This document shows, piece after piece, positions 6,355-54,522 of a stretch of 64,000 nucleotides of DNA. The translations under genes were made by a program, and so were the position numbers. Positions within the stretch are counted from its first letter, which is position 1. Each line of letters starts with the position of its first letter. The notes beneath the pieces were generated by a model. That model saw only the letters and a list, made by a program, of their open reading frames with translations. It was not told the origin of the DNA and made no database searches. This DNA comes from Bacteroidia bacterium (GTDB lineage Bacteria; Bacteroidota; Bacteroidia; JADZBD01). Where the stretch lies: assembly GCA_020852255.1 (NCBI GenBank), contig JADZBD010000002.1:283531-347530 (forward strand), written 5' to 3'.

Positions 6355-8829
6355 CTAATCTACATTGTCGTGAAGGAAAGAATTGTTCGGTTTAATCTCG
6401 ATCTTCTTGTCCTCCCCTTCACTCAGGGTATATCTGCTAACGTTGGATTCCGACGAATGTTGCTGGTTATCGAGGTTCACGCCACGACGCTTGTAAGCAG
6501 GCTCGTTTTCCAGTTCGGCCAATCCGTTCGGTGATTTAAGCTTATAGCTCAGTTCCTTCAAGCGCTGGATACGTTCCTGCGCTTTTTTGATCTGACTGTT
6601 GCTGGCCATGGTTTCTTCCGATTTTTCTTCGGCAACCACTTCATCCTGCTTTTTCTGCTCTATGGTGAGCACCGGCGGCTGAATTTCTTCCTTTCGCATC
6701 TCCACTACCGGGGTTTCATCCACAGGTGTTTCCGTTACCCCGGCTTCCGGGGATGCGGTCACCTCCGCTACCGGCGTTTCCTCAGCGGGAATTTCTGCAA
6801 CCGGTTCAGAACTGATTTCCATAACCGGCTCCTCCCGGATTTCTTCGGCGCTAAAGTCCAGTGTAATTTCCACTTCCTTCTTCTCTACCTCCGATTCTAC
6901 TGAAAAGGCATCCGGTTCTACACAAAGGGGCGCCGTTTCCTGCTCCAGCATTTCTTCCAAAGACGATACTTCATCTGTCGTTTCAGGATGCGTCTCCGCG
7001 GTGAACAAGTCCGATTCCGGTGAATTGTGTTCTTCTATTTCGGGGGTCTCCTCGGAAATAAAGGTTTCATTTTCAAAAAGCGACTCCTGCTCCACCTCAG
7101 CCGCAGGTACTTCTGTGATCATTTCCACCTCGGGAGTGGTATTCTCCTCTGTATTCATTAGGACAGGAATTTCCTCCACCGCGGTCACTTCCTCCTCCAC
7201 TTCCGTTACTTCCTCTATTACCGCGGTTACTTCCTCCATTACAGGAGTCTGCACTTCCATCATTGGTGTTTCCTCCGGATGGGTTGTCTCTTCCAGGGCA
7301 GTGATCTCCTCCTCTGCATGGATCACTTCAGAAACAGGTAACTCTTCCAAAACCGGGGTTTCCTCCAACAAAGGTGTTTCTGCCACCGGGCTGATCTGGA
7401 CCTCAGCAGTTATCTCCGCTACCGGAGCTTCCACAACAGGAATTTCCGCCACGGGTGTAATCACTTCAAACTGCTCCTCCGTTTTCACCTCCTCCTCTGC
7501 CAGGGGGGCAACATTTACCCATCCGGACGGAGCAGGAATAGATTCCTCCACCGGGGAAGAAAGAAAGTCAGAAGAATAAAGATCTGATTCCTCCTCTTTA
7601 ACTTCCTCCACAGCGGCAACCTCTTCTACGTTTCTGATAACAAGTACCGGCTCCAGGAGGCGATCTTTTTCCTCACGGGAAAGGTTGCTGAAGGTCTTAT
7701 TCTCATCGGTTCTGAGATCCGATTTTACCTCCATACTCCCTTTCAATACCGGCTCATCCGCGCTATGATCTGCAACAGGAGGAGCCACACAATTCATTTC
7801 GGATGTGCTTTCGTTCAGATCCAGCACTTTTTTCTCCGGCTTCTTGTGGGTTTCATATCCCAGCAGGGGACGGGAATGGAATCCGGTGGCAATAATGGTC
7901 ACATTCACCGAATCGCCGAGTGAATCATCCACACCATATCCGATTTTAATATCTGCATTTGTTCCGGTAGAATCCTGGATAAAATCCGTAATCTCTCCCA
8001 GTTCATCCATTGTGAGTTCCTTGGTACCGGAGGTGATATCAATGAGAACAAACTTGGCACCTGTGATTTCATTATCGTTCAGCAGCGGAGAATTCATTGC
8101 GACCTCCACGGCTCGAATAGCCCGGTTTTCCCCGGCCGCACTGCCTGTTCCCATCAGAGCAACACCGCTGTTCTTCATCGCAGTATGAACGTCGTTAAAG
8201 TCTACGTTCATATGCTTGGTATGGGAAATCAGTTCAGCGATACTCTTGGCAGCATTGGCCAGTACATTATCGGCCTGGGCAAAAGATTCACGCACGCCAA
8301 GGTTTCCGTAGATCTCTCTTAGCTTGTCGTTGGTAATCACCAGCAGACAGTCTACATGCTTTTTCAGTTCCTCGATCCCCAGTTCCGCCTGTTTCCGTTT
8401 ATTTTTCCCTTCGAAAGAGAAAGGAAGTGTTGCAATTCCCACGGTAAGCACGCCCATTTCGCGGGCGGTCTGGGCGATGATCGGAGCCCCTCCTGTGCCC
8501 GTGCCCCCACCCATGCCGGCGGTAATGAACACCATCTTTGTGCCCTTGGAAAGAAAATCTTTGATCTGATCCAGGCTTTCTATGGCTGATTTCATACCGA
8601 TCTCAGGAAGAGATCCTGCGCCGAGGCCCTGGGTAAGGGCTTTGCCCAATTGTACCTTTATGGGAACGGGACTGGACTCCAGTGCTTTAATATCGGTATT
8701 ACACACAATAAAATCCACCCCTTTGATACCGAGGCGAAACATGTGGTTTACTGCGTTTCCTCCTCCGCCACCAACGCCGATGACCTTGATAATGGAGAGG
8801 AGTTCTTTTGGAATGTCGAAGCGCATCAT
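6355..8829 (-). CDS. ftsZ: Cell division GTPase FtsZ with very long acidic C-terminal linker (824 aa)
   Basis: N-terminus IKVIGVGGGGGNAVNHM plus tubulin signature GGGTGTG. The core ends near aa 330, followed by roughly 450 aa of E/V/T/P/A-rich low complexity and a short conserved tail. Confidence 0.95.
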   Translation of the reverse strand: MMRFDIPKELLSIIKVIGVGGGGGNAVNHMFRLGIKGVDFIVCNTDIKALESSPVPIKVQLGKALTQGLGAGSLPEIGMKSAIESLDQIKDFLSKGTKMVFITAGMGGGTGTGGAPIIAQTAREMGVLTVGIATLPFSFEGKNKRKQAELGIEELKKHVDCLLVITNDKLREIYGNLGVRESFAQADNVLANAAKSIAELISHTKHMNVDFNDVHTAMKNSGVALMGTGSAAGENRAIRAVEVAMNSPLLNDNEITGAKFVLIDITSGTKELTMDELGEITDFIQDSTGTNADIKIGYGVDDSLGDSVNVTIIATGFHSRPLLGYETHKKPEKKVLDLNESTSEMNCVAPPVADHSADEPVLKGSMEVKSDLRTDENKTFSNLSREEKDRLLEPVLVIRNVEEVAAVEEVKEEESDLYSSDFLSSPVEESIPAPSGWVNVAPLAEEEVKTEEQFEVITPVAEIPVVEAPVAEITAEVQISPVAETPLLEETPVLEELPVSEVIHAEEEITALEETTHPEETPMMEVQTPVMEEVTAVIEEVTEVEEEVTAVEEIPVLMNTEENTTPEVEMITEVPAAEVEQESLFENETFISEETPEIEEHNSPESDLFTAETHPETTDEVSSLEEMLEQETAPLCVEPDAFSVESEVEKKEVEITLDFSAEEIREEPVMEISSEPVAEIPAEETPVAEVTASPEAGVTETPVDETPVVEMRKEEIQPPVLTIEQKKQDEVVAEEKSEETMASNSQIKKAQERIQRLKELSYKLKSPNGLAELENEPAYKRRGVNLDNQQHSSESNVSRYTLSEGEDKKIEIKPNNSFLHDNVD

Positions 8830-12349: not shown

Positions 12350-13455
12350 CTCTTCTTTACCATTGATATGATTTCGTCTGCAATCAATGCAGCGGCATTG
12401 GGAAGTGAAAGACGCAATGCATTTTGTGCGAGTTGGTTTCTTGCTTCCTGGTTCTTCATCAGATCCAGAATTAAGTGGATCAACCCTGTTCCGGCATCCC
12501 TGTCGCTGATCATTTGCGCTGCGTTTTCATTCACCAGCGCTATGGCATTTTTGGTCTGATGATCTTCCGCTACATTGGGTGAAGGCACCAGGATACATGC
12601 CTTGCCTGCCACACATATCTCCGACACGGAAATGGCGCCCGCGCGTGATATTACCAGGTCAGCCGCTGCATAAGCCAGATCCATACGCTGGATGAACGCT
12701 GAGAGATGAATGTTCGTATGACCGAACTGTTGCAGAGCTGATGCCATCTCCTTTTCCTGATTCTTGCCCGTTTGCCAGATCACCTGCATACCGGCCTCCT
12801 CCAGCTCCCTTATACCGCGCAACATTGCACCGTTGATGGTTCCCGCGCCCAGGCTCCCTCCTATTACCAGCAGTACCGGCCGGTCCTTTGCCAAATGGAA
12901 ATAACCGATCGCCTCCTCTTTTTTGCTTTTCAGGTCCACAATATCCTTTCGTACGGGATTACCGGTTATGAGTATCTTCTCCCGGGGAAAGTACTTTTCC
13001 ATTCCGCGGAAGGCCACGCAGATCCGGTTTACTTTCGAAGCCAGCAGTTTGTTGGTTACACCGGGAAAGGAATTCTGCTCCTGAATCAGAGTGGGAATTC
13101 CTCTTGCGGCCGCCACCCGCAATGTGGGTGCACTGGCATACCCGCCTGTTCCGATCACCGCATCGGGAGAAAAATCCTTAATGATCTGCCGGGCTCTTCC
13201 CATGCTGGCCATTAGTTTAAAAAGAAGATTCCAGTTTTTCCAGATTTTCTTCCGCTGGAACCCGGCGATGGGCAATCCTTCAATACGGTATCCGGACGCC
13301 GGCACTTTTTCCATTTCCATTCTTCCCAGCGCTCCGATAAAAAGGATCTCCGCATCCGGGCGTTTTTCCCGTATGGCATTGGCGATGGCGATGGCCGGAA
13401 ATATATGGCCGCCGGTACCTCCGCCACTGAAAATAAATTTAAGCGGGACTGACAT
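12346..13455 (-). CDS. murG: Undecaprenyl-PP-MurNAc-pentapeptide UDP-GlcNAc transferase
   Basis: FSGGGTGGHIFPAIAIA N-terminal motif, GT28 family. Confidence 0.9.
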   Translation of the reverse strand: MSVPLKFIFSGGGTGGHIFPAIAIANAIREKRPDAEILFIGALGRMEMEKVPASGYRIEGLPIAGFQRKKIWKNWNLLFKLMASMGRARQIIKDFSPDAVIGTGGYASAPTLRVAAARGIPTLIQEQNSFPGVTNKLLASKVNRICVAFRGMEKYFPREKILITGNPVRKDIVDLKSKKEEAIGYFHLAKDRPVLLVIGGSLGAGTINGAMLRGIRELEEAGMQVIWQTGKNQEKEMASALQQFGHTNIHLSAFIQRMDLAYAAADLVISRAGAISVSEICVAGKACILVPSPNVAEDHQTKNAIALVNENAAQMISDRDAGTGLIHLILDLMKNQEARNQLAQNALRLSLPNAAALIADEIISMVKKR

Positions 13456-14608
13456 CAGGGACAGAATCTTTCTCCGCGGGTAGTTCTGTTTCCAGCTCTC
13501 TGCTCACGCTGAGCAGAATTCCTACCGCAATACTGGTGAACCAAATCGAAGTTCCTCCCATGCTGATGAAAGGCAAAGGCTGTCCCGTTACCGGAAACAG
13601 ATTGACTGCCACCGCCATGTTGATAAATGCCTGGAACACCAGGCTGAAAGCCAGTCCCACCGAGACCAGTACGCCAAATAACTTTTCACACTTGGTGGCT
13701 ATTCTTATCGCCCGGAACAATATGATGATGTAAAAGAAGATAAGGACAATTCCGAGAAGTCCGCCCATTTGTTCCAGGATCATCGCGAAAATAAAATCTG
13801 AGGATGCCTGCGGAAGAAAAGAGCGTTGGTCCGAATTTCCAAGTCCTTTGCCCACAAAAAAATTTGAGCTTCCAATGGCGGTTTTGGCCATTTCCGACTG
13901 ATAATTCTCCTTTGCATTTCCGGAAGTAAAATCTGTCAGGCGTTCTTTCCAGGTCTCACCTCTGGGTATTACGCCCGGTGCATAGATGATGAGCATAATC
14001 ACCACACCGAGAAATACGATCCCGGCACCAGCCACCGTCAACAGGTGTTTGATCCGCGCTTTTCCGATGAAGAGTAAAAGCATGCAGGTAGCAAACAGCA
14101 TAGCCGAAGTAGAAAAATTAGTGGGAAAGATGAGACCACAGATCAGGACAACCGGAAGAAACACAGGCAAGAAACCCTTTTTGAAATCTCCAAGCATATC
14201 CTGCTTTACCGTAAGTAAACGGGCGAGATACATCAGGAGCGAAAGCTTTGCCAGATCAGAAGGCTGGAATGTGAGTCCCAGTCCCGGTATTTCTATCCAT
14301 CTTCCGGCACCTCCCGCTTCCACACCCCAGAAGGTGGCATAGATCAGCAAAGGAATAGATATATAAAATCCAATTTGCCCGATCCGTGAAAAATAGCTGA
14401 ACCGTATCCGGTGGATGAGATAAATGATTCCGAGTCCCATGCAAAGAATTGCGGCGTGTTTGACCAGGTAGGGAATGGTATTTCCCCCTTTATATTTAAA
14501 GGCCAGCGTGCCGATAGATCCGTAAACCATCAACAATGAAACCACTGACAGCAGGACAATGGTCACCCATAGTACCTTATCTCCTTTTAATGCGCGCAGT
14601 ATTCCCAT
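13439..14608 (-). CDS. ftsW: SEDS-family peptidoglycan glycosyltransferase FtsW
   Basis: Polytopic membrane protein with SEDS pattern (...PLPFISMGGTS...), in the dcw position. Confidence 0.85.
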   Translation of the reverse strand: MGILRALKGDKVLWVTIVLLSVVSLLMVYGSIGTLAFKYKGGNTIPYLVKHAAILCMGLGIIYLIHRIRFSYFSRIGQIGFYISIPLLIYATFWGVEAGGAGRWIEIPGLGLTFQPSDLAKLSLLMYLARLLTVKQDMLGDFKKGFLPVFLPVVLICGLIFPTNFSTSAMLFATCMLLLFIGKARIKHLLTVAGAGIVFLGVVIMLIIYAPGVIPRGETWKERLTDFTSGNAKENYQSEMAKTAIGSSNFFVGKGLGNSDQRSFLPQASSDFIFAMILEQMGGLLGIVLIFFYIIILFRAIRIATKCEKLFGVLVSVGLAFSLVFQAFINMAVAVNLFPVTGQPLPFISMGGTSIWFTSIAVGILLSVSRELETELPAEKDSVPDVSPA

Positions 14609-15099
14609 CAGGGTAACAGTTTTCGGACCGCCTTTTTGAACAGGTCGCCCCGGTTTTTATAATTATCAAATGCATCGTAACTGGGACAGGATGGTGAAAA
14701 GAGTACCAGGTCTCCGCTGCGTCCCCACTTTGAAGAGATGAACACTGCTTCCTCAATTGAAATAGCATGCGCAAAAAACATACATTCTCTCCGGAACATT
14801 CTGTACATTCTGTCAGGATCACTGCTCAAACAGATCAGTCCTTTCACTTTTTCCTTCATTAAATCCCTCAGCAGGGAATAGTCCACTCCGCGGTCCTGCC
14901 CGCCGAGGATCAGCAGCACGTTCTTACTGCCTGTTTCCATGGAGCGGAGACTTTCCCAGGTAGTATTCACCCGGATGGAGCGTGAATCGTTAATAAAATC
15001 AATTCCACGGACACTTCCGGCAGGCTCCAGAGCATGGTCAAAGAGCGTGGAGGTATCCCGTTTATAAACCGATATTTTCTTCTTTGCAAACATAGGCAA
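14608..15099 (-). CDS. Stand-alone Mur-ligase C-terminal-domain protein, a diverged paralog of the MurD C-terminus
   Basis: 163 aa. [23 protein letters not shown]...LLILGGQDRGVDYSLLRDLMKEKVKGLICL...GDLVLFSPSCPSYDAFDNYKNRGDLFKKAVRKL aligns at roughly 40% identity with the C-terminal ~140 aa of the adjacent full-length MurD ([23 protein letters not shown]...[28 protein letters not shown]...[33 protein letters not shown]). It starts 12 bp after the murD stop, and its stop overlaps the ftsW start. Confidence 0.6.
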   Translation of the reverse strand: MPMFAKKKISVYKRDTSTLFDHALEPAGSVRGIDFINDSRSIRVNTTWESLRSMETGSKNVLLILGGQDRGVDYSLLRDLMKEKVKGLICLSSDPDRMYRMFRRECMFFAHAISIEEAVFISSKWGRSGDLVLFSPSCPSYDAFDNYKNRGDLFKKAVRKLLP

Positions 15100-15110: not shown

Positions 15111-16448
15111 TTACAGGGCGCGTACAGCAGCTTTGAACTGCGTTCCGCGGTCTTCATAATTTTCGAACAGGTCAAAGCTGGCACAGCAGGGTGAGAGCAG
15201 TACGATATCCCCTTTCTTCGCGAGGGAGTAAGACCGCATCACCGCTTCTTTGGCTGAGGCGGTCTCAACAATCTGTTCTACCACACCTGAGAAGGCCTTT
15301 TTGATCTTTTTGTTATCTGTTCCAAGGCAAACAATGGCCTTCACCTTTTCCGTCACAAGGTCCATCAGCATAGAATAATCATTCCCCTTATCTACACCTC
15401 CTACTACCCATACTACCGGGCGCTGCATACTCTCCAGCGCATACCATGTAGAATTTACGTTCGTAGCCTTACTATCATTAATAAAATCGATGCCGTGAAC
15501 ACGTGCTACAAATTCCAGCCGGTGCTCTACATTCTGAAAATCCGAGAGTGACTCCCGGATAACGGGGTTACGAATCTCCACCAGCTTTGCCGCAATTCCG
15601 GCAGCCATGGAGTTGTACAGATTGTGTTTACCTTGCAATGCGAGCTCTTCAAGAAACATAGCGAACGTGTTTTGGTTTATATTGATATGGAGTTGATTCT
15701 CTTCGATAAAGGCTCCCGTCGGGAGTTTTTTTTTAATGCTAAAGGGATATAACGTGCCGTTGAAGGCACGCCCTTTCATGCCCCTCACTGTTTCATCATC
15801 ATCAGTGCAGTAGATGAAAGAATCTTCCGGTCTTTGATTCTGCGTAATGCGAAACTTTGAATTCACATAGCCTTGCATTCCGTTGGCATACCGGTCTAAA
15901 TGATCAGGCGTAATGTTTGTAAGAACGGCCACGTTGATTCTCGTCCTGAACATGCCATCGAGCTGGAAACTGCTTAGCTCAAGCACATAATGATCATGAT
16001 TTTCCTCGGCGACCAGTTGTGCGAAACTCTTGCCCACATTTCCACCCAGACCTACATTCAGTCCTGCCTTTTTCAGAATATGATAAGTCAACATGGTGGT
16101 AGTGGTTTTACCGTTAGTTCCGGTAATACCGATAAGTTTTGCGCTGGTGTAGCGGGCGGCGAATTCGATCTCTGAGATCACCGGTACGCCTTTATGGGTC
16201 AGCGCTGCTATTATAGGTGCTGCATCAGGGATACCCGGGCTTTTGATCACTTCATCTGCACCAAGTATTCTTCCCTCGGTATGTTGTTTTTCTTCGTAGG
16301 GGATTCCCCGCTGTTCAAGCTCTTTCCGATAGCTTTCCCGGATCGCGCCCTTATCAGACACAAATACATCAAATCCTTTACGTTGCGCAAGGATTGCTGC
16401 ACCTACACCACTTTCTGCGGCACCGAGTATAACCACTTTTCCGCTCAC
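15111..16448 (-). CDS. murD: UDP-N-acetylmuramoylalanine--D-glutamate ligase (full length)
   Basis: [19 protein letters not shown]-terminus, [13 protein letters not shown]-loop, intact C-terminal domain. Confidence 0.9.
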
Positions 16449-25600: not shown

Positions 25601-27436
25601 CTACGTTTTCTTCTTGGTAAGTAATTGTATCCAGCCGGTACGTTTCACTTCCACAGGACCAGACTGGGTTTTCAGCACGGCATCCAGGATGTAATAATAG
25701 GTTCCGTCTGAAAGCAGAATTCCTGAAGTACTTCTGCCATCCCAGCGAATCTCGTCTGCGGTAGTTTCAAACAGCAGGGTTCCCCACCGATTATAGATCT
25801 GAATATGGAAGTTCTCCATCCCTGAATTAGGAATATAGAATTCATCATTCTGACCGTCGCCGTTTGGTGTAAATACGTTCGGAATAAGGAGCATGGTATC
25901 CACTTCAATAATCGTGGTGATGGTATCTGTACATCCCGCCGCATTGGTCACAATAAGGGTCACGATGTAGGTGCCGGCCCCTGAGAACTGGTGATTGGGG
26001 TTCTGATTATTGGAATTATTATTTGTTCCGGAACCCGGGTCGCCGAAGTTCCACTGCCAGGATGTAGCTCCGTTGGAGGTATCCGTGAACTGATAGATGG
26101 GCTCGTAATATCCGATCGCATTGGTGTCAAAACCGGCAATCGGAGCGGGAGAAACAGTTACAAAGCAAGAGTCAGGAAGTGATGGACATCCGGAAGGAGA
26201 GTTTTCAATAACATAAACCCATCCGGAATTGCCTGTCCAGGATACCACGATGGAATCGGTTCCCTGACCGGAAACTATGGTTCCGTTGCCGACCGTCCAG
26301 GTAAACTGACTACCGCTGCCGTTGGCCGTGAAAATATTACCCAGTGAGTTTGCGCAGACATTCTGGGGGCAATTGATGGACGGCGCTCCCGGCTTCAGTT
26401 CTGTAAGGGCATAGGGCTCATCCGCATCCGCGAAAGGCCAGCTCACCCGTTTAAGAGTGGAATAGAACGAAAGCGTGCCTGCATTGACCTGTGTCGAAGA
26501 GTTCATGTCTGTCCAGATATTCGGACTCCAGTGTGCCATCCCGTTGAAAAATCCATCAGCAGTGGGGTCAAATGCGATCAGAAGATCGGCCGAGGTGGTT
26601 CCCGCTACACGCACGATCGAATGATAAAACGTATCGTTAACAAGACAGGGAATGCCGTCATTCACGTTACGGGGATAGTTATCAAAATCCGGATCCCAGT
26701 TGATCATGCGAACGTTCCATGTATTGTTTGCAACCGCAGTAGGTTCGATCTGCACGGGACGATACCTGCGAAGATTACCTGTACTGGAACCCACGGGAAA
26801 AAGATACGCGCTGTCATCATCCGTAACCCACGAAAGCACCCCGGGGGCCAGCGATGAAACCAACCCCTCTTGATTCATGGAAGGGGTGAGATTAATGATT
26901 GCGTTGGTTTGAGGGTTCAGCACATTCATATCGTACACATCAGTAGATAACTCGCGGTCCGTAAGATCAAGCAGGTGATCCACATTGGCATCGATCATAT
27001 GGAGTTTAATGCGGTTAGCGCCTGTTCCGGTGCCCTGACAGCGTAATATGTGAAAGGTGGTAACGTTGGTTCCCATGATCCGTTGCTGAATCGTAGATGC
27101 CATCAGTCGAACATCACTGAGATCCTGCTGAAAAATGGCGTTATTAACCCAATCACCTTCCACATTTGTAATCCCGTCGCCCTGCCAGGTCGAATTATTA
27201 TTTAACGTTACATCACCCGGATTCGGAAGCGTGCTATTGAGGGTCACATTCATTGTCCCGTTGTGGTCAATGTTTCCATTGGAAGTAGAGGAGTTATTCT
27301 CGATACCGCCGTTCACCTGAATGACAGACTGCGGTGCAGTGTATATAGTAGCGCCGTTATTGAAGAATATCTGAGCCTGCACCGGGAGAGAAAGGAAGAA
27401 AGCGGGCAGCAAAATAAAAGAGGCAAGACTCTTCAT
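25601..27436 (-). CDS. Secreted T9SS substrate with type B (gliding-motility-associated) C-terminal sorting domain
   Basis: Signal peptide MKSLASFILLPAFFLSLPVQAQ (start chosen at 27436). C-terminus ...LLIPNVFTPNGDGQNDEFYIP...IQIYNRWGTLLFE is the type B CTD signature. The Ig/PKD-like body is N/T/S-rich. Confidence 0.7.
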   Translation of the reverse strand: MKSLASFILLPAFFLSLPVQAQIFFNNGATIYTAPQSVIQVNGGIENNSSTSNGNIDHNGTMNVTLNSTLPNPGDVTLNNNSTWQGDGITNVEGDWVNNAIFQQDLSDVRLMASTIQQRIMGTNVTTFHILRCQGTGTGANRIKLHMIDANVDHLLDLTDRELSTDVYDMNVLNPQTNAIINLTPSMNQEGLVSSLAPGVLSWVTDDDSAYLFPVGSSTGNLRRYRPVQIEPTAVANNTWNVRMINWDPDFDNYPRNVNDGIPCLVNDTFYHSIVRVAGTTSADLLIAFDPTADGFFNGMAHWSPNIWTDMNSSTQVNAGTLSFYSTLKRVSWPFADADEPYALTELKPGAPSINCPQNVCANSLGNIFTANGSGSQFTWTVGNGTIVSGQGTDSIVVSWTGNSGWVYVIENSPSGCPSLPDSCFVTVSPAPIAGFDTNAIGYYEPIYQFTDTSNGATSWQWNFGDPGSGTNNNSNNQNPNHQFSGAGTYIVTLIVTNAAGCTDTITTIIEVDTMLLIPNVFTPNGDGQNDEFYIPNSGMENFHIQIYNRWGTLLFETTADEIRWDGRSTSGILLSDGTYYYILDAVLKTQSGPVEVKRTGWIQLLTKKKT

Positions 27437-27532
27437 GTGCGTTTTTTTTAGTTTCCTGTAAAACAGGGTATTAGCCAAGCAAATGTAAGAAAGACCCCGG
27501 TTTTATCCAAATAATCTATAATTCTTTGATTA

Positions 27533-41253: not shown

Positions 41254-43380
41254 TTACCGGTTTGATGACTGGTTCAGAAGTTTAAATGAGACCGTTCCGC
41301 CGGGTGAACGAAAAACAGCAAAAAATAATCCGTCTGAAAATTCTCTCAGATCTATCTGTGCAGGGCTATGAAGGAATAAAACGATTTGTCCTGATCCGTT
41401 GTACACTGTTACCTCATAATCTCCTTCTGCTGTTTCCACATTGAAAATGCCGGGTCCCGGATTGGGGAAAGTTTTCACCTGCACCGCGGGAACAGTAAGC
41501 GCAGAAGTGACTATGGAAACTGTATCTGCGAATTTGCTTATCAGTTTGATATATGCAGCCTGTGTGTAAATTCCCACTTCTGTAACCTCCCAGGAATTCT
41601 CTGGCCAGGAAGTATTCCAGTCCTTATATGACTTCTGCACCGGCTGGTTCATGGGAGGTGAAATGGGCGGACCGGTATAAGAGCCGTCCGGCTGGTAGGT
41701 GGGATTAATGCCGCAGGTCAGAAAACCGGGAGGCGGTCCGATGTATGGTACGGCCGAACCGTCGTACACGGTTGCATCTCCGAACCAGCCGTGATAGATC
41801 TCACGGATCGGACGATCGGCGCCGTACACATCGCTTTTAACCAGAAAGGAATAATTAACGGCATTCACTCCATGAAAAAAGTGGATATAATCCTCTGCAG
41901 CATACCGGTAGGCAGGATGATTTGCCGAATTGATGTTGTATTCGATCATGTTCCAGAAAATGGATCCGGTTTCCGCCTTGAATTCATTGTTATTCCATAC
42001 ATAATCCGCATTCTTCATATATGCCCGGTACAGATCCGTTTGTGCAGTAACAGAAGGGAGCAGATCTCCATTATTGGCTGAAACGGAAGTGCTGCAGTTA
42101 TTCCTGATAGCATTCACTACGGAAACCGTAGCCCCCGGAACGGTGGTGTAATACAGGAGTGCATCCTGGTACGCAGATTCAAACGGATACCAGTAGGTCC
42201 ACTGGATAGGCTGAATGGATGAATAGTTGGCATCCACGTAACTCCGGTACGTAACATTGCCGGTTGCCGCGTAGAGATAAACCGCTGCCGTGAAGGATGT
42301 GGCAGACTGTGCATACTGGGAAATCTCCGGATTGGCACTACCAAAACCTGTATTGGCATAGGAGGAGAAGCCGGGATTATTCTGCAGCCATGTCCATGCC
42401 AGTTGGGCGCGGCTCAGCAGTGTGGCCCCATAGGTTTGCGTTGCCGGAATACTGCCGTACACGATCGCCGCGTGTGCGAAAATACTTGCCAGCGTACGGG
42501 TAGCGGAAGATGCCACACCGCCGTAGAATCGCTGCGGATTATCCGCTGAGGGCGGGCTGGCGCTGGGAAAACCCTGGGCAGATACCTTCATAAGTCCGCC
42601 CCCGTTGCTCTCCTGCATTTTCATCAGCCAGTCCAGCTCCCAACGGATCTCATCGAGAATGTCGGGTATTCCGTTTCCGCTTTCCGGTATTCCGTAGTTA
42701 TCCGGAAAAATTCCCGGATTCTGTTCATAGGCATCAAGGAGATAGTGAACCGTGGCATGACAAAAATTGGTGTACTTGTTATAATCACCTGCATCGTGCC
42801 ATCCACCCGAGAGATCCCGTTCCAGTCCGGTGTTGTTGGGCTGTGTAACATCCCTGCAGTTCAGATCCTGCATGGATCCCACATGGCAGGCTGTGTTGTC
42901 CGTATGCTGGGAGGAAGCATACGGCACCGATTTTGGCAGGCCGCAGCGCTGATAGTAGAGCGCTCTGATGGCATGTTTTAAAGCATTGTTATATACATCA
43001 TCATTTATGGTAAATGTAAATGATCGTTTGTTACTGGAAGGATCATTGACATAATAATCGCCCTGCACATTTACAGAGGTAAATTCAAACCACCAGCCTT
43101 TGTCGCCCGACTGGGTATGCGTATTTCCGTTGTTCCAGGGAACCGGGCTTCCGGAAAACACGACCAGGTTGTCACTGGCACGCCTGACTTCCAGGACAGG
43201 ACCAGGAGTGAAAGGAGAGGGAGCATTGTACCCTGTTTGCGGTTCTATGATCACTGCTACTTTTCGGGCATTCTGGCGGTATCCGATCTGGTCAATTCGG
43301 AAATGGTCGTCAATAACGGATTGGGATAAAAAGCAAGCTGGTGAGCAGACCAGAAGGGATAGAATCAATACCGATTTCAT
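41254..43380 (-). CDS. Glycoside hydrolase family 9 endoglucanase with N-terminal Ig-like (CelD_N) domain and T9SS C-terminal sorting domain
   Basis: Signal peptide. GGWHDAGDYNKY (GH9 signature). C-terminus VKTFPNPGPGIFNVE...VTVYNGSGQIVL. Confidence 0.75.
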   Translation of the reverse strand: MKSVLILSLLVCSPACFLSQSVIDDHFRIDQIGYRQNARKVAVIIEPQTGYNAPSPFTPGPVLEVRRASDNLVVFSGSPVPWNNGNTHTQSGDKGWWFEFTSVNVQGDYYVNDPSSNKRSFTFTINDDVYNNALKHAIRALYYQRCGLPKSVPYASSQHTDNTACHVGSMQDLNCRDVTQPNNTGLERDLSGGWHDAGDYNKYTNFCHATVHYLLDAYEQNPGIFPDNYGIPESGNGIPDILDEIRWELDWLMKMQESNGGGLMKVSAQGFPSASPPSADNPQRFYGGVASSATRTLASIFAHAAIVYGSIPATQTYGATLLSRAQLAWTWLQNNPGFSSYANTGFGSANPEISQYAQSATSFTAAVYLYAATGNVTYRSYVDANYSSIQPIQWTYWYPFESAYQDALLYYTTVPGATVSVVNAIRNNCSTSVSANNGDLLPSVTAQTDLYRAYMKNADYVWNNNEFKAETGSIFWNMIEYNINSANHPAYRYAAEDYIHFFHGVNAVNYSFLVKSDVYGADRPIREIYHGWFGDATVYDGSAVPYIGPPPGFLTCGINPTYQPDGSYTGPPISPPMNQPVQKSYKDWNTSWPENSWEVTEVGIYTQAAYIKLISKFADTVSIVTSALTVPAVQVKTFPNPGPGIFNVETAEGDYEVTVYNGSGQIVLFLHSPAQIDLREFSDGLFFAVFRSPGGTVSFKLLNQSSNR

Positions 43381-49482: not shown

Positions 49483-52400
49483 TTGAAGAGACTTTACCTT
49501 GCTGTTCTTTTCTTCCTTTCACTTTACGTTGCCAGGTCTCAGCCTTACGGTAACGAATGGATTAATTACTCCCAGAATTATTACCGCATACCGATTGCTG
49601 CAGAAGGCATCTACCGGCTGGACTCCGCAGCACTTGCCGCTTCTGGCATTCCCCTCAACGGACTAGATCCCCGTCGGTTTCAGATCTTTTGCCGCGGACG
49701 GGAACAAGCGATCTTTGTGAGTGGAGAAGCTGATGGTATTCTGAACACTGGTGACTTCATTGAGTTTTATGCGCAGAAGAATAACGGACACCTTGATTCG
49801 GCGGTATATGATACAGCGGCAGTTCCCAACCCGTATCATTCGCTTTATTCCGACACCTCCGTTTATTTTCTGACCTGGAACAGCTCTCTGGCCAACCTGC
49901 GACTTGCACCCGTAACAGACAATACATTCACTCTGTATACTCCGGATCCTTATTTTTTCAGGGAACTCTTGTTCATGACGTCCGCTTATTACCATGCGGG
50001 GCCCGTTACTTTTTATGGCTCGTATAACGGATTTTTTCATTGCACCGAAGGGTGGATGAGTGCGCCGTTTTATAAGGGGCAAACATTGCCCGTTACCTTC
50101 AACACCTCTTTGCGATATGCAGGAGGTCCGGATGGTACACTCACCACTGTTATTGCCGGGGAATCGGACGATTTTACAAACTTTTCATTGCCAGATCATG
50201 AATTGCGTCTGGAATACAACACGAATTCAGGAACCACCCTCCTGGCCGATTCCCTTTTTAACGGCTATAAGCTGATCACGCTGACATTTACTATCCCCTT
50301 ATCAACACTCACGAATAGCACAACATTTTCTCATATCAGCGTTAATAATCCATCGTTCACCTGGAACAATACAACCGCACTGAGTTATTCCCGTTTACGC
50401 TTCCCCCAGATCATGGACCTGGAAAATCAGCCAAAATACACATTGCACATACCCGATAACGGTTCCCAGAGTAAGGCCTATCTGAGAATTTCCAATTTTA
50501 ACGATCAGGGCGGGAACGTATTTCTTTATGATCTCACAAATCGTTTGCGTATTCAGGTAGTTGCCGATTCCGGTTTCCACAAAGTCCTTGTACCCAACGC
50601 AGGCAACATGAAGGAATGCTACCTGCATGCAGAAAATTCTGTGATTTCTCTCAGCGGTGTAACCCCGGTGGGAACGAACGCACAATTCACCTATTATGGC
50701 GCTACAGGATACGATTCTGCTTTTATCATTATTACGCACAGCAGATTGTGGAATGAATCCGCACAGTACGCCGCTTACCGCTCCGGTGTTCCGGGAGGAT
50801 CCAATCACGTACTACTTGCTGAAATCGGACAGCTTTACGATCAATTTGCGTGGGGAATAAAATATCATCCGGCGGCCATCCGGCGTTTCGCTGACCTGTG
50901 TTGGGACAGTGCATCGGTAAAACCGGAACATCTTTTTCTCATTGGAAAATCCATTGTTTTCCCTGATGCGCGCGATTACTATCCGTATTTGCAGGATGTA
51001 CTTGTTCCCACCTTTGGTTACCCGCCTTCCGATGTATTGTTAACTGCTAATCAGAACGGGGCAAATATTGAACCCCGCATTCCCACAGGAAGACTTTCCG
51101 CGCTCACCGGAGCAGAAGTACTGGACTATCTTGCCAAGGTGCAATCGCATGAAGTCAACCCATCTGCGGAATGGATGAAGCATGCCCTTCATTTCGGAGG
51201 CGGCACCACACAGCTTGATCAGCAAACCTTTGCCGGATTTTTAACCGGGTATGAAAACACTTTTGAGGACACACTGTTCGGGGGTTTTGTTCATACCTTT
51301 CTCAAGACCACTTCGCAACCCATCCAGATTACGCTGTCTGACTCGGTAAGGAACCTCATCAACAATGGTGTTTCACTGATGACTTTTTTCGGGCACGCCT
51401 CCGGAAACTCCTTTGATCAAAATCTCGACGACCCGGCCAATTATAACAACAGCGGCCGCTACCCCTTTATCCTCGCAAACTCCTGCTTCTCGGGAGATTT
51501 TCACGCACCTCCCAACTCCTTTGTCAGCAACGCCTCGGAGCTCTGGGTGGTCAATCCCAAAGGAGCCATCGGGTTCCTGGCCTCCGTGGGTCAGGGTATT
51601 ACCTATTACATTGACCAGTTTGCACAACAAATGTACCGGCAGTTCGGGCAAATCAATTATGGCAGCAGCATTGGAGAATGCATGCAGGCAGCAATTGACT
51701 CGGCGCAGGGAACCGTTTCCGATCTTTTTATGAACATAACACTCATGGAGTACAATCTTCAGGGTGATCCATCTGTACGCCTTAATCCGCAGGATAAACC
51801 CGACTATGCCATTGCCGATTCCAGTGTATACTTTACCCCCGGGCCAGTGATCACGGCGGAAGTTGACTCCTTTGAAATGAATATAGTGATTACCAACCTG
51901 GGGCGGGCTCCCCGCGATACGGTGATTGTTGAGCTGAAGCGAATATTCCCCGACAACTCGGAGAGCATATATACCCTTCCCGTACCCTTTGTGTTGTTCC
52001 GTGACACTCTGCAGGTACGAATGCCCGTTGATCTGATCAAAGGACCCGGCATTAACCGGTTTGAAGTATGGGTAGATTCCCCGCAGCAAATTGACGAAGG
52101 AAACGAAGGGAATAATCAGCTGCTGACACCGGCCCAATTGTTCATTGTATCAGGAGATATTGTGCCTGTTTATCCGTACGAATTCGCAATTATTCCTAAT
52201 GACACGGTTACACTTAAAGCCTCCACCGGAGATCCGTTTGAGGCACCTCATAATTACCGGTTTGAGATTGACACAAATGATCTTTACAGTAATCCGCTCA
52301 GCGCCCTTGTGGTTTCCGCCCCCGGCGGAGTGATCAGTTGGACACCCCCACTCACGCTCACGGACACCACTGTATATTTCTGGAGGGTACGGCGGGATAC

Positions 52401-54522
52401 ATCGGACACGGTGAATTATCGCTGGAAAGAATTCTCCTTCCAGTATGTTCCGGGGAAACGCGGTTGGGAACAGTCGCATTTTTTCCAATTTAAGAATAAT
52501 GACCACGTTTTTGTAAAACATAACCGTCCGACACGCACCTGGGATTTTGTGCCGGTAGGAAAAACATTAACAGTTGACTGTTACGGACAGCAGCCGCCGT
52601 TTTACAATTATAGCGAGATGTCGGCCACGCAGTACAAACTGGATCTCTCGGTTCAGGAATATGCCGGTTGCGGCTTTGTGAATGCGATGTTGGTGGCAAT
52701 TATTGATCCGGTGACGCTGCAGCCCTGGGGAAACCGCTGGTTCGATGCGTCAAATAATGTAATGCTGAACCCCACTCACTTTTTTGGAAACGCCAACGAT
52801 ATTCCGAGCGGAGGGCCCTGCGGACGAAACCGTGTAGAAAAATATTTCATTTTTCAGTGGGATCAGGCCGCGCAATTGGCCGGCATGAAGAACCTGCTGG
52901 AGAATGTGGTTCCAAACGGATATTACATCCTCGCTTACAGCTGGCTGAGCAGTGCAGCGAATCTGTGGGTTGACACTTCCCTGTACACAACCTTTGAAAC
53001 ACTCGGATCGGATACAATCCGTGACATTGGCGATGTGCCCTATATTTTCTTCTGTAAAAAAGGAGACCCGGGAAGTGCCCAGGAGGTGGTGGGAGCACAG
53101 ATGGATTCCTACATCAATTTCACCGCCGTACTGAGCAGCAATTCCGACGCAGGAAATTTTACCGGACCGCTGATTGGTCCGGCCATGAGCTGGGATTCCA
53201 TTTCCTGGTATCAGCATGGTCTGGAGAATCCCACGGCCGACAGTGTGAGTCTGAATGTGTATGGTGTGAACAACGCGGGCGCAGAAACCCTGCTGCAAAC
53301 CTACCCCCCTTCCCAGTATGCGATCGACCTCAGTTCGCTGAATGCAGCCACCTATCCATACCTGCGATTGAATCTTTTTATAAAAGACGACAGCCTGGGT
53401 ACTTCCGCTCAGATGGATAAATGGCAGGTGTTCTATCAGCCTGCACCTGAAGTTGCCGTTCACCCTCCTCTTGGCTGGAGTTTGTATGCCGACACCCTGG
53501 CGGAAGGGGATTCTGTGAAATTCAGGGTAGCCGTGAAAAACATCTCCGAATTCTTCATGGACAGTATGCAGGTGAACCACTGGGTGATTGACCGCAACAG
53601 GGTATCCCATCCCCAAACCATTTACTTCTCCGCATCGCTCTACCCCGACAGTTCCCTGCAAACGACCATCACGCTTCCCACCGAAGGTCTTGCAGGCCTC
53701 AACCAGCTTTGGATGGAGATCAATCCTGTGGGCACAGCCTTTACACAACGGGAGCAATATCATTTTAATAATATTGCCACCATTGACTTTTTTGTGGGCG
53801 ATGACAAGATCAATCCCCTGCTGGATGTAACGTTCGACGGAGTGCACATTCTCAACGGAGACATTATTTCCGCCCGACCGGATATTCTGATACAACTCAA
53901 AGATGAGAACCAGTTTCTCGCACTCAATGATACCGCCGATTTTAAACTCTGGCTGAAATACCCCGGTGCCAGTACTTACACCCGGTTCTATTTCAATGAC
54001 CCGCGCCTGATTTTCACTCCCGCAGCGCTTCCTGACAACAGCTGCCGCATTAATTTTCTCCCTGTGCTTCTGCTAGATGGTGTATACGAGCTGCTTGTAC
54101 AAGCGCAGGACCGCAGCAATAACCTTTCAGGTTCCATGGATATGAGAATTTCTTTCGAAGTGGAAAATAAACCCTCCATTACGGAAGTGATGAACTATCC
54201 GAATCCATTTTCAACGTCTACCCGATTCGTATTTACGCTCACCGGTTCCGATCTCCCTGAAACCTTTACCATTCAGATTCTCACTATTACCGGAAAAGTA
54301 GTTCGTGAAATCAGTAAAGAAGAACTGGGGCATATTCATATCGGCCGGAATATTACGGAATACGCCTGGGACGGCAGGGATCAGTACGGTGACCTGCTGG
54401 GGAACGGAATTTACCTGTACCGGGTTATGACCCGTCTCCACGGCAACGCTATAGAACACCGTGAAAGCGGGGCAGATCCCTTTATTCATAAGGGTTTCGG
54501 GAAAATGTACCTGATGCGGTAG
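49483..54522 (+). CDS. C25 (gingipain-like) cysteine peptidase family protein, probable T9SS sortase PorU, unusually long at 1679 aa
   Basis: Signal peptide. Candidate catalytic His in FFGHASGNSF and Cys in FILANSCFSGDF, with C25-like spacing. C-terminal CTD-like beta-sandwich (NYPNPFSTSTRFVFTL...IQILTITGKVV...GIYLYRV). Confidence 0.5.
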   Translation: MKRLYLAVLFFLSLYVARSQPYGNEWINYSQNYYRIPIAAEGIYRLDSAALAASGIPLNGLDPRRFQIFCRGREQAIFVSGEADGILNTGDFIEFYAQKNNGHLDSAVYDTAAVPNPYHSLYSDTSVYFLTWNSSLANLRLAPVTDNTFTLYTPDPYFFRELLFMTSAYYHAGPVTFYGSYNGFFHCTEGWMSAPFYKGQTLPVTFNTSLRYAGGPDGTLTTVIAGESDDFTNFSLPDHELRLEYNTNSGTTLLADSLFNGYKLITLTFTIPLSTLTNSTTFSHISVNNPSFTWNNTTALSYSRLRFPQIMDLENQPKYTLHIPDNGSQSKAYLRISNFNDQGGNVFLYDLTNRLRIQVVADSGFHKVLVPNAGNMKECYLHAENSVISLSGVTPVGTNAQFTYYGATGYDSAFIIITHSRLWNESAQYAAYRSGVPGGSNHVLLAEIGQLYDQFAWGIKYHPAAIRRFADLCWDSASVKPEHLFLIGKSIVFPDARDYYPYLQDVLVPTFGYPPSDVLLTANQNGANIEPRIPTGRLSALTGAEVLDYLAKVQSHEVNPSAEWMKHALHFGGGTTQLDQQTFAGFLTGYENTFEDTLFGGFVHTFLKTTSQPIQITLSDSVRNLINNGVSLMTFFGHASGNSFDQNLDDPANYNNSGRYPFILANSCFSGDFHAPPNSFVSNASELWVVNPKGAIGFLASVGQGITYYIDQFAQQMYRQFGQINYGSSIGECMQAAIDSAQGTVSDLFMNITLMEYNLQGDPSVRLNPQDKPDYAIADSSVYFTPGPVITAEVDSFEMNIVITNLGRAPRDTVIVELKRIFPDNSESIYTLPVPFVLFRDTLQVRMPVDLIKGPGINRFEVWVDSPQQIDEGNEGNNQLLTPAQLFIVSGDIVPVYPYEFAIIPNDTVTLKASTGDPFEAPHNYRFEIDTNDLYSNPLSALVVSAPGGVISWTPPLTLTDTTVYFWRVRRDTSDTVNYRWKEFSFQYVPGKRGWEQSHFFQFKNNDHVFVKHNRPTRTWDFVPVGKTLTVDCYGQQPPFYNYSEMSATQYKLDLSVQEYAGCGFVNAMLVAIIDPVTLQPWGNRWFDASNNVMLNPTHFFGNANDIPSGGPCGRNRVEKYFIFQWDQAAQLAGMKNLLENVVPNGYYILAYSWLSSAANLWVDTSLYTTFETLGSDTIRDIGDVPYIFFCKKGDPGSAQEVVGAQMDSYINFTAVLSSNSDAGNFTGPLIGPAMSWDSISWYQHGLENPTADSVSLNVYGVNNAGAETLLQTYPPSQYAIDLSSLNAATYPYLRLNLFIKDDSLGTSAQMDKWQVFYQPAPEVAVHPPLGWSLYADTLAEGDSVKFRVAVKNISEFFMDSMQVNHWVIDRNRVSHPQTIYFSASLYPDSSLQTTITLPTEGLAGLNQLWMEINPVGTAFTQREQYHFNNIATIDFFVGDDKINPLLDVTFDGVHILNGDIISARPDILIQLKDENQFLALNDTADFKLWLKYPGASTYTRFYFNDPRLIFTPAALPDNSCRINFLPVLLLDGVYELLVQAQDRSNNLSGSMDMRISFEVENKPSITEVMNYPNPFSTSTRFVFTLTGSDLPETFTIQILTITGKVVREISKEELGHIHIGRNITEYAWDGRDQYGDLLGNGIYLYRVMTRLHGNAIEHRESGADPFIHKGFGKMYLMR

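What the first reader, a model, noticed from the sequence alone, without database searches (positions are those of the whole stretch)
14608..15099. Stand-alone, diverged copy of the MurD C-terminal domain inserted between murD and ftsW
A 163-aa ORF aligns over about 140 aa at roughly 40% identity with the C-terminal domain of the full-length MurD encoded immediately upstream. It is tightly coupled on both sides: 12 bp after the murD stop, and ATGA overlap with ftsW. That level of divergence argues against a recent duplication remnant or an assembly artefact. It points to a maintained gene encoding only the Mur-ligase C-terminal domain. A MurD-C-only protein could not ligate, but it could bind UDP-MurNAc-Ala or the D-Glu product, MurD itself, or a divisome partner. 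That would make it a possible modulator of Mur ligases. I do not recall a stand-alone MurD C-domain being a described dcw component.
Basis: seen in the sequence. Interest (0 to 1): 0.65.

Follow-up and report, generated by a model that had tools for sequence, protein, structure and literature searches.

The report
Conserved stand-alone MurD C-domain paralogue
Between the cell-wall genes murD and ftsW, this uncultured Bacteroidota genome carries a small gene under strong purifying selection that encodes only a diverged copy of the last domain of the MurD ligase, lacking an arginine the enzyme needs; I found no description of such a component in the cell-division gene cluster, and its role is still unknown.

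Summary
The ORF at 14608..15099 (-) most likely starts at the ATG at 15093, giving 161 aa. It matches the C-terminal domain of the full-length MurD encoded just upstream (45% identity over 141 aa, E 2e-40). An AlphaFold model superposes on MurD domain 3 (TM 0.79).

It is neither a remnant nor an artefact. A family-specific motif scan of 185,579 species genomes found 95 relatives. The 80 listed are all uncultured Bacteroidota MAGs, and each has full-length murD, then the small ORF, then ftsW. The small ORF is intact in 78 of the 80. The small ORFs form one clade apart from the cognate MurD C-domains, and their divergence tracks that of MurD (r = 0.91). dN/dS has a median of 0.037. The nearest outgroups sampled (MurD 57% and 52% identical) lack the ORF.

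The protein cannot ligate. It has no N-terminal or ATPase domain, and Arg302 is replaced. The other ATP and D-Glu contact residues (Lys319, Thr321, Lys348) vary between subclades. A remodelled motif, LFSPxCPSYDAFDNYKNRG, is nearly invariant.

My best reading is a non-catalytic accessory protein of the MurD/divisome machinery that acts through protein contacts. The partner and the effect are inferred, not shown. I found no prior description.

The parts
14608..15093 (-). The small gene, called 'sC' here. It is 161 aa from the ATG at 15093 (an in-frame TTG at 15099 would add 2 aa), and the stop TGA lies at 14610..14608. It encodes a stand-alone, diverged MurD domain-3 paralogue.
   Evidence: ORF list. 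BLASTP to the neighbouring MurD: 45% over 141 aa, E 2e-40. TIGR01087 positions 304-441, E 5e-31. AF2 model pLDDT 82.6, with Foldseek top hits all MurD domain 3 (TMq 0.79, rmsd 2.0-2.4 A). Identical to the NCBI gene call P0001.
14647..14703 (-). The family signature LFSPSCPSYDAFDNYKNRG (sC residues 131-149). It corresponds to E. coli MurD 408-426, the loop and helix that carry the D-Glu contacts Ser415, Leu416 and Phe422. It holds the family-specific substitutions L409F, A414P, E420D, E423K and D424N.
   Evidence: Translation. Family alignment A1. Column statistics over 76 small ORFs against 74 cognate MurD C-domains. E. coli numbering from the 2wjp alignment.
14971..15036 (-). The degenerate active-site segment [22 protein letters not shown] (sC residues 20-41). 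It corresponds to MurD H301-R302-x-E304 ... N316-D317-S318-K319-A320-T321-N322. In this protein R302 is Ala, K319 is Arg, T321 is Ile and N322 is Arg.
   Evidence: Translation. Alignment to E. coli MurD. Arg302 is 100% conserved in the cognate MurD C-domains and is not the main residue in any subclade of the small ORFs.
15039..15093 (-). N-terminal tail of about 18 residues (MFAKKKISVYKRDTSTLF). It is basic, variable in length across the family, and predicted to be disordered.
   Evidence: pLDDT below 50 for residues 1-18. This region is poorly conserved and variable in length in alignment A1.
15111..16448 (-). murD, full length (445 aa) with all three domains and an intact C-terminal domain. 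It is the parent paralogue, and its stop lies 17 nt before the sC ATG.
   Evidence: TIGR01087 405 bits against a cut-off of 212. Pfam MurD_N, Mur_ligase_M and Mur_ligase_C all match. Junction sequence.
13439..14608 (-). ftsW (389 aa). Its ATG overlaps the sC stop codon by 1 nt (TGATG).
   Evidence: Pfam FTSW_RODA_SPOVE, 217 bits. Junction sequence. No promoter-like or terminator-like site on the minus strand at the murD-sC or sC-ftsW junctions.

Best explanation
Shown: this is a real protein-coding gene that has been maintained for a long time. It arose once, by tandem duplication of the 3' third of murD (domain 3 plus the hinge), in the ancestor of a clade of uncultured Bacteroidota. It has since been inherited vertically, between murD and ftsW, inside the dcw cluster.

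Shown: the product folds like MurD domain 3 but cannot be a ligase. It lacks the UDP-binding and ATPase domains. It has lost Arg302, which is invariant in the cognate MurDs. The remaining ATP and D-Glu contacts (Asp317, Lys319, Thr321, Lys348) are each lost in part of the family, in different combinations between subclades.

Shown: what every member keeps is the structural core shared with MurD, plus five near-invariant residues found only in this family (Phe409, Pro414, Asp420, Lys423, Asn424) on the loop and last long helix.

Inferred: the protein works as a non-catalytic accessory subunit, a pseudo-enzyme paralogue. It would be made together with MurD and FtsW and act through protein-protein contact rather than canonical substrate binding. 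The most likely mode is docking on MurD itself or on the MurD/FtsW end of the Mur-divisome assembly, to scaffold or tune lipid-II precursor synthesis. The remodelled helix replaces MurD's conserved acidic pair Glu423-Asp424 with Lys-Asn and is the candidate interface.
For: Homology and fold.

Conservation of the gene:
- A scan with the family-specific peptide patterns FDNYKNRG and LF[SA]P[SA]CPSY over one genome for each of 185,579 species found 95 relatives. The 80 listed are all Bacteroidota MAGs.
- Every one of the 80 has murD, then the small ORF, then ftsW. The ORF is intact in 78 of 80, at 152-185 aa.
- Independent ENA, JGI and NCBI assemblies show the same synteny.

Single origin and vertical descent:
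- The small ORFs are monophyletic in 156 of 200 NJ bootstraps.
- Identity to the genome's own MurD C-domain (0.395) equals identity to other genomes' MurD C-domains (0.394), so there is no gene conversion.
- Pairwise divergence correlates with that of MurD at r = 0.91.

Selection: NG86 dN/dS has a median of 0.037 and a maximum of 0.163 over 158 unsaturated pairs. The MurD C-domain gives 0.054.

Clade restriction: the outgroups sampled, with MurD 57% and 52% identical, have murD directly followed by ftsW.

Loss of catalytic residues and gain of family-specific invariant residues.

Co-expression:
- The murD stop to sC start gap has a median of 7 nt and is 5 nt or less in 39 of 80 loci.
- The sC stop to ftsW start gap has a median of 15 nt.
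- No minus-strand promoter-like or terminator-like site lies at either junction in the window.

Precedent for Mur C-domains as contact modules, and for a physical MurD-FtsW linkage: MurE-MurF and MurD-FtsW chimeras (PMC10214165).
Against: There is no direct evidence for any partner. Co-folding could not be run, and no expression or interaction data exist for these uncultured organisms.

About half of the family keeps Lys319, Thr321 and Asn322, and every member keeps Ser415, Asn421 and Tyr422. Small-molecule binding in some form is therefore not excluded.

The charge switch on the helix is a sequence-level inference. I could not inspect the model coordinates, so surface exposure rests on helical periodicity only.

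Two related genomes (L043, L068) carry frameshifted copies. This may mean the gene is dispensable in that lineage. Both shifts sit in 5-nt homopolymers, so they may instead be sequencing errors.
Confidence: 0.5

Rival explanations
1. Ligand-binding module. The stand-alone domain still binds a carboxylate ligand in a remodelled pocket: D-Glu, UDP-MurNAc-L-Ala-D-Glu or a related metabolite. It would act as a sensor, a buffer or a hand-over chaperone between MurD and MurE or glutamate racemase.
For: In MurD, domain 3 is the D-Glu-binding domain. Ser415, Asn421, Tyr422 (E. coli Phe422), Arg425 and the N316-x-S318 loop are invariant in the family. The most conserved stretch of the whole protein is exactly the Ser415 loop and helix. 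Lys348 is conservatively Arg in the window's protein and in 31 of 76 members.
Against: The canonical contacts are not conserved family-wide. Lys348 is Leu in 25 of 76 and Ser in 6. Thr321 is Ile, Val or Cys in about a third, including the window's protein. Lys319 is lost in 42%. Residues that are invariant in both the small ORF and MurD may simply hold the fold together. In MurD the site is completed by domains 1 and 2 and the bound nucleotide, all of which are absent here.
Confidence: 0.2
2. Trans-acting alternative domain 3. The small protein docks on the N-terminal and central domains of MurD in place of MurD's own mobile domain 3. It would either block the closed, active state as an inhibitor or present a different amino-acid substrate.
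For: MurD domain 3 is known to swing as a rigid body between open and closed states (established structural knowledge of MurD; the open and closed E. coli structures are among the hits). The duplicated segment includes the hinge (the H301-x-x-E304 strand and, in most members, a helix-like N-terminal extension). It is often translationally coupled to murD.
Against: Arg302 is replaced throughout the family. Asp317 is lost in about a fifth of members and Lys319 in 42%. A productive alternative active site is therefore very unlikely. Closure in MurD depends on contacts made through the bound ligands, which these same residues make. The cognate MurD keeps a fully intact domain 3 of its own.
Confidence: 0.08
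3. Non-functional leftover. The ORF is a decaying duplication remnant, an assembly artefact, or an ORF kept only for DNA-level reasons such as spacing or translational coupling of ftsW.
For: Pfam Mur_ligase_C scores below threshold. NCBI annotates the ORF only as a hypothetical protein. Two genomes carry frameshifted copies.
Against: The ORF is intact in 78 of 80 species, at a stable length. dN/dS has a median of 0.037, as low as in the MurD C-domain. A 19-residue motif is nearly invariant while the rest has drifted to about 48% identity. The predicted fold is confident. The ORF is present in many independent assemblies from different sources. Selection on spacing alone would not constrain amino-acid changes.
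Confidence: 0.03

Closest known systems
Domain 3 (C-terminal, D-Glu-binding domain) of MurD, UDP-MurNAc-L-Ala:D-Glu ligase (e.g. E. coli MurD residues 299-437, PDB 2UAG/2JFG; A. baumannii 7TI7)
   Same: Clear homologue. It is 45% identical to the neighbouring MurD domain 3. The predicted fold is the same (TMq 0.74-0.79, rmsd 2.0-2.6 A). It shares the core residues H301, E304, N316, S318, G344, G345, P411, C413, S415, N421, R425 and G426.
   Different: It is a separate polypeptide with no domain 1 or 2. Arg302 is replaced. Lys319, Thr321 and Lys348 are not conserved. Five residues are family-specific and near-invariant (F409, P414, D420, K423, N424). It evolves faster between subclades (48% against 77% mean identity).
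Natural Mur chimeras, especially MurD-FtsW and MurE-MurF (Shirakawa et al. 2023, PMC10214165)
   Same: They occupy the same place in the dcw cluster (the murD/ftsW junction). They carry the same implication: C-terminal domains of Mur ligases serve as contact surfaces in a Mur/divisome assembly, and the stoichiometry of neighbouring products matters.
   Different: Those are fusions of complete, active enzymes. Here an extra, catalytically dead copy of one domain is inserted as a separate gene. I saw no fusion of it to FtsW among the 148 best profile hits examined.
Non-catalytic or partial Mur-ligase-family proteins: the plastid MurE-like PEP-associated protein, and MurT of the MurT/GatD lipid II amidotransferase
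   Same: These are precedents for Mur-ligase-derived proteins that work as partners or structural subunits rather than as classical Mur ligases. Chains of plastid RNA-polymerase complexes appear as weak fold matches (8qma_O, 8ras_Q, 8r6s_Q). That these chains are the MurE-like subunit, and the MurT architecture, are from my own knowledge.
   Different: Those proteins keep at least the central domain. None is a stand-alone domain 3, none derives from MurD, and none is encoded between murD and ftsW.
Other proteins that carry a MurD-type C-domain outside MurD, seen here (P0110, P0131, P0175, P0181, P0062, P0074)
   Same: They also carry a Bacteroidota-type MurD domain 3 outside a normal MurD.
   Different: They keep the canonical catalytic motifs (EHRLE, NDSKATN, SPACASFD). 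They are fused to unrelated N- or C-terminal regions. Where I checked, they lie next to a uracil-DNA glycosylase gene, not in the dcw cluster. They are uncharacterised.

Membership tests
MurD ligase (NCBIfam TIGR01087 equivalog) | Whole-protein score at or above the curated cut-off (211.95 bits) | tested here: not met
   108.2 bits, matching only model positions 304-441 of 441. The neighbouring MurD scores 405 bits.
MurD ligase (NCBIfam TIGR01087 equivalog) | N-terminal UDP-substrate-binding domain and central ATPase domain with a P-loop | tested here: not met
   The protein is 161 aa and aligns only to MurD residues 308-445. There is no Pfam MurD_N or Mur_ligase_M hit.
MurD ligase (NCBIfam TIGR01087 equivalog) | Active-site residues contributed by domain 3: Arg302, Asp317, Lys319 (nucleotide side) and Thr321, Lys348, Ser415 (D-Glu side), in E. 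coli numbering | tested here: not met
   In the window protein R302 is Ala, K319 is Arg, T321 is Ile and K348 is Arg, while D317 and S415 are kept. Family-wide, Arg is not the main residue at 302 in any subclade, K348 is kept in 7 of 76, T321 in 64% and K319 in 58%. The roles of these residues come from established MurD structural and mutagenesis literature (my own knowledge).
Pfam Mur_ligase_C (PF02875) | Score at or above the gathering threshold (28.4 bits) | tested here: not met
   23.6 bits, E 1e-4, over residues 45-138. Many relatives do carry precomputed PF02875 hits, so by sequence the family straddles the threshold.
Pfam Mur_ligase_C (PF02875) | The Mur ligase C-terminal domain fold | tested here: met
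   AF2 model with pLDDT 82.6 and pTM 0.78. The 33 best PDB matches are all MurD, aligned over about 141 residues at TMq 0.73-0.79.
The stand-alone MurD-C paralogue family defined here | 152-185 aa single-domain protein with the motif LF(S/A)P(S/A/G)CPSYDAFDNYKNRG | tested here: met
   The window protein has LFSPSCPSYDAFDNYKNRG at residues 131-149. The motif is invariant or nearly so in alignment A1 and in 76 species.
The stand-alone MurD-C paralogue family defined here | Encoded between a full-length murD and ftsW | tested here: met
   True in the window, in L001-L004 and in 80 of 80 GTDB loci.
The stand-alone MurD-C paralogue family defined here | Groups with the other small ORFs rather than with its own genome's MurD C-domain | tested here: met
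   The small ORFs, including the window's, are monophyletic in the NJ tree with 156 of 200 bootstraps.

The most novel reading that the evidence does not exclude
The small protein is a dedicated pseudo-enzyme regulator of peptidoglycan precursor synthesis. It is a dead copy of MurD's mobile domain that binds MurD and/or the cytoplasmic face of FtsW through its remodelled helix. It would thereby couple or gate MurD activity to the divisome. That would make it a previously unknown, lineage-specific dcw component and a natural handle on the long-debated Mur-ligase/divisome complex.
Probability: 0.3. Interest if true: 0.7.

Novelty: new variant of a known kind. Interest (0 to 1): 0.55.

Why it matters
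The dcw cluster is among the most conserved gene arrangements in bacteria, and its gene content is considered well catalogued. Here a whole clade of uncultured Bacteroidota, at least 95 species-level genomes, has inserted an extra gene at the murD/ftsW junction. It has kept that gene under purifying selection as strong as on MurD itself.

The gene is a catalytically disabled copy of one enzyme domain, so its retained function must be binding or regulation. Whether the cytoplasmic Mur ligases assemble with each other and with the divisome is still an open question. A stand-alone MurD domain with a new invariant surface is a compact, expressible probe for that question. It is also an example of pseudo-enzyme evolution by partial gene duplication.

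Practically, the family is currently annotated either as 'hypothetical protein' or, wrongly, as a MurD ligase.

Tried and rejected
- Exact-sequence look-up of the window's MurD found nothing. The source organism is known only from the NCBI name of the small protein: 'Bacteroidia bacterium', locus tag IT233_02055.
- My first tree and dN/dS scripts timed out. I rewrote them.
- Rfam found no RNA family in the window, so there is no 16S to place the organism.
- I tried to pin the clade to a GTDB order through MAG names (Palsa-965, UBA4416, AKYH767) in the literature. That gave nothing usable, so I do not name an order.
- The AlphaFold-database fold library was not available, so I could not look for characterised stand-alone relatives by structure.
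- I considered co-folding with MurD or FtsW. The structure tool takes a single chain, restricts its inputs and returns no coordinates or contact map, so it could not reveal an interface. I did not run it.
- I looked for Rosetta-stone fusions of the small protein to FtsW among the 148 best profile hits and found none.
- I checked whether the profile separates the family cleanly from canonical MurD. It does not. After about 15 short top hits, the scores merge into ordinary MurD C-domains and metagenomic fragments. I therefore took family size from the motif scan instead.
- Net charge and pI differ only modestly from the MurD C-domain (median pI 6.15 against 5.10). I do not use this as evidence.
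- I rejected the split-murD explanation, because the neighbouring MurD is complete in all loci. I rejected gene conversion or recent duplication.
Full report
**1. What is in the window.**
On the minus strand the window carries a standard Bacteroidota dcw cluster: rsmH, ftsI, murE, mraY, murD, ftsW, murG, murC, ftsQ, ftsA and ftsZ. Between murD (15111..16448) and ftsW (13439..14608) lies an ORF at 14608..15099, which is 163 aa from a TTG start. An ATG two codons further in (15093) gives 161 aa. That matches the NCBI gene call for this exact protein (P0001, 'MAG: hypothetical protein IT233_02055 [Bacteroidia bacterium]') and the N-termini of the closest homologues. The murD stop TAA is followed by 11 nt to the TTG and 17 nt to the ATG. 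A consensus scan shows no promoter-like or terminator-like site on the minus strand at either junction. This is consistent with co-transcription but does not prove it.

**2.
BLASTP of the ORF against the adjacent MurD gives 45% identity and 63% positives over 141 aa (MurD residues 308-445), E 2e-40. NCBIfam's murD model matches positions 304-441 of 441 (E 5e-31, 108 bits against a cut-off of 212). Pfam Mur_ligase_C is just below threshold at 23.6 bits against 28.4. An AlphaFold2 model built on the family alignment is confident (mean pLDDT 82.6, pTM 0.78), with only residues 1-18 disordered. Its 33 best PDB matches are all MurD, aligned over about 141 residues of domain 3 with TM-score 0.73-0.79 and rmsd 2.0-2.6 A.

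**3. It is a conserved gene family, not a remnant.**
A search of 5.8 billion proteins returned 40 hits. All are short (132-181 aa), and identity runs from 77% down to 39%. Their alignment shows a nearly invariant C-terminal motif, LF(S/A)P(S/A/G)CPSYDAFDNYKNRG.

Genomic context was checked for a close relative (P0006, 61% identical; three independent assemblies) and a distant one (P0023, 43%). Both show full-length murD (444-445 aa), then the small ORF, then ftsW.

I then scanned one genome for each of 185,579 bacterial and archaeal species with two family-specific peptide patterns. This found 113 stretches, of which 95 encode relatives. The 80 listed are all metagenome-assembled Bacteroidota genomes from lakes, groundwater, permafrost, glacier-fed streams, soil and activated sludge. 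Two are labelled as other phyla, but their MurD is of this clade. No cultured isolate is among them.

In all 80, the small ORF sits between a MurD that aligns to residues 1/4-445 of the window's MurD (65-75% identity) and ftsW.
- It is intact in 78 of 80, at 152-185 aa.
- The two exceptions, L043 and L068, are close relatives of each other. Their frameshifts are at different positions, each in a 5-nt homopolymer, and L068 has a 'tig' contig name typical of long-read assemblies. They may be real lesions or sequencing errors.
- The murD-to-ORF gap has a median of 7 nt and is 5 nt or less in 39 of 80 loci.
- The ORF-to-ftsW gap has a median of 15 nt.

**4. One old duplication, vertical descent, strong purifying selection.**
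I built a neighbour-joining tree from 80 small ORFs, their 80 cognate MurD C-domains and 13 outgroup MurD C-domains (144 columns). The small ORFs form one clade in 156 of 200 bootstraps. The cognate C-domains form another clade in the best tree, with weak support (72 of 200).

A small ORF is no more similar to its own genome's MurD C-domain (0.395) than to other genomes' (0.394), so there has been no gene conversion or recent re-duplication. Across genome pairs, divergence of the small ORF tracks that of the MurD C-domain (r = 0.91). It is larger in 98% of pairs (mean identity 0.48 against 0.77).

Nei-Gojobori dN/dS over 158 pairs with unsaturated dS has a median of 0.037 and a maximum of 0.163. 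The MurD C-domain in the same pairs gives 0.054.

Two outgroup Bacteroidota whose MurD is 57% and 52% identical to the window's have murD followed directly by ftsW. So the insertion is specific to one clade. I could not name that clade with the tools available.

**5. What has been kept and what has been lost.**
Numbering follows E. coli MurD, taken from the profile alignment to PDB 2wjp. The comparison covers 76 distinct small ORFs and 74 distinct cognate MurD C-domains.

| Class | Residues |
|---|---|
| Invariant in both | H301, E304, N316, S318, G344, G345, P411, C413, S415, N421, R425, G426; Y422 and F429 nearly so |
| Conserved in MurD, lost or variable in the small ORF | R302 (100% Arg in MurD; Ser, His, Gln, Asn or Ala here); D317 (78% kept); K319 (58%); T321 (64%); N322 (49%); K348 (7 of 76 kept; Arg 31, Leu 25, Ser 6) |
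| Specific to the small ORF, near-invariant | L409F (100%), A414P (96%), E420D (91%), E423K (86%), D424N (88%) |

From established MurD structural work (my own knowledge), R302, D317 and K319 contact the nucleotide, and T321, K348, S415, L416 and F422 contact D-Glu. R302 and D317 are among the residues invariant across Mur ligases.

The window's protein reads H-A-L-E and N-D-S-R-S-I-R. So R302 is Ala, K319 is Arg, T321 is Ile and N322 is Arg, and K348 is Arg. Different subclades have lost different subsets of these residues. One member, L042, still has EHRLE, NDS and GGVDKG. The only loss seen in nearly all members is Arg302.

Positions 420, 423 and 424 lie one helical turn apart, on the face opposite F419, Y422 and G426. 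I therefore infer they are solvent-exposed, although I could not inspect coordinates. MurD's strictly conserved acidic pair E423-D424 becomes K-N.

**6. Interpretation.**
Shown: this is a real, maintained, clade-specific dcw gene. It encodes a stand-alone MurD domain 3 that cannot catalyse ligation.

Inferred: the conserved function is binding. The canonical ligand contacts drift between subclades while a new surface patch is fixed. Given that, I favour a protein-protein role as an accessory or regulatory subunit acting on MurD and/or the MurD-FtsW end of the Mur/divisome machinery. I rank this above conserved D-Glu or UDP-MurNAc-peptide binding.

Published work gives a precedent. Natural MurD-FtsW chimeras exist in Proteobacteria and Actinobacteria. 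[quoted passage not shown] Non-catalytic Mur-ligase homologues used as structural subunits also exist, such as the plastid RNA-polymerase-associated MurE-like protein. Chains of those complexes appear as weak fold hits, and their identity as the MurE-like subunit is from my own knowledge.

The rivals are a remodelled ligand-binding module, a trans-acting replacement for MurD's own mobile domain, and a functionless remnant. They are weighed in the structured fields. The last is effectively excluded.

**7. Novelty.**
Three full-text searches found no description of a stand-alone MurD C-domain protein or of an extra gene at the murD/ftsW junction in Bacteroidota. Curated libraries have no model for it. 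Public annotation calls it either 'hypothetical protein' or, misleadingly, 'UDP-N-acetylmuramoylalanine--D-glutamate ligase'.

It belongs to a known superfamily and to a known evolutionary theme, pseudo-enzyme paralogues. The architecture, the genomic position and the conserved new surface are new, so I rate it a new variant of a known kind.

**8. Limits.**
- All genomes are uncultured MAGs.
- The motif scan gives a lower bound on family size and would miss divergent members.
- The tree is neighbour-joining on 144 columns, and the position of the duplication relative to other Bacteroidota MurDs is unresolved (4 of 200 bootstraps).
- There are no expression, interaction or ligand data.
- No co-fold could be run.

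Noticed in passing
window 6355..8829 (-): The FtsZ of this cluster is 824 aa. The GTPase and FtsZ_C domains end at about residue 317. About 450 residues of very acidic, E/P/V/T-rich, repeat-like linker follow before the conserved C-terminal peptide. That is an unusually long disordered linker for FtsZ.
   Followed up: partly
proteins P0110, P0131, P0175, P0181 (loci L085 664-1884, L086 178-1974); also P0062, P0054, P0047, P0074: These proteins join a canonical-looking MurD C-domain (EHRLE, NDSKATN, GGx[23 protein letters not shown]) to unrelated sequence. Four of them share an N-terminal region with the motif PPDEWSQY, and two of those lie next to a uracil-DNA glycosylase gene, not in a dcw cluster. 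P0062 has a TIR-like N-terminus. P0074 has an Mrr-like C-terminal extension. They may be a second, independent recruitment of MurD domain 3, or gene-call artefacts.
   Followed up: partly
L042 2875-3438: One species has a much less diverged small ORF that still carries EHRLE (Arg302), NDS and GGVDKG, with the motif LFSPACPSYDLYENYEVRG. It looks like an intermediate state between MurD domain 3 and the rest of the family.
   Followed up: partly
L043 3445-3916 and L068 3407-3879: In two closely related MAGs the small ORF is split by a frameshift. The shifts are at different positions, each in a 5-nt homopolymer (T5 in L043, A5 in L068). They are either independent inactivations in one sublineage or sequencing errors.
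   Followed up: partly
L035 and L079: MAG contigs labelled 'Hydrocarboniphaga daqingensis' (a gammaproteobacterium) and 'Synechococcus sp. UW140' carry this Bacteroidota-type murD, small ORF and ftsW locus. The bins are probably mislabelled or contaminated.
   Followed up: no
window 49483..54522 (+), 41254..43380 (-), 25601..27478 (-): There is a 1679-aa protein with a Peptidase_C25 (gingipain-like) domain. There are also two probable type IX secretion cargo proteins: a GH9 cellulase with a Por_Secre_tail, and a PKD-repeat protein with CHU_C. These are ordinary for Bacteroidota and unrelated to the finding.
   Followed up: no
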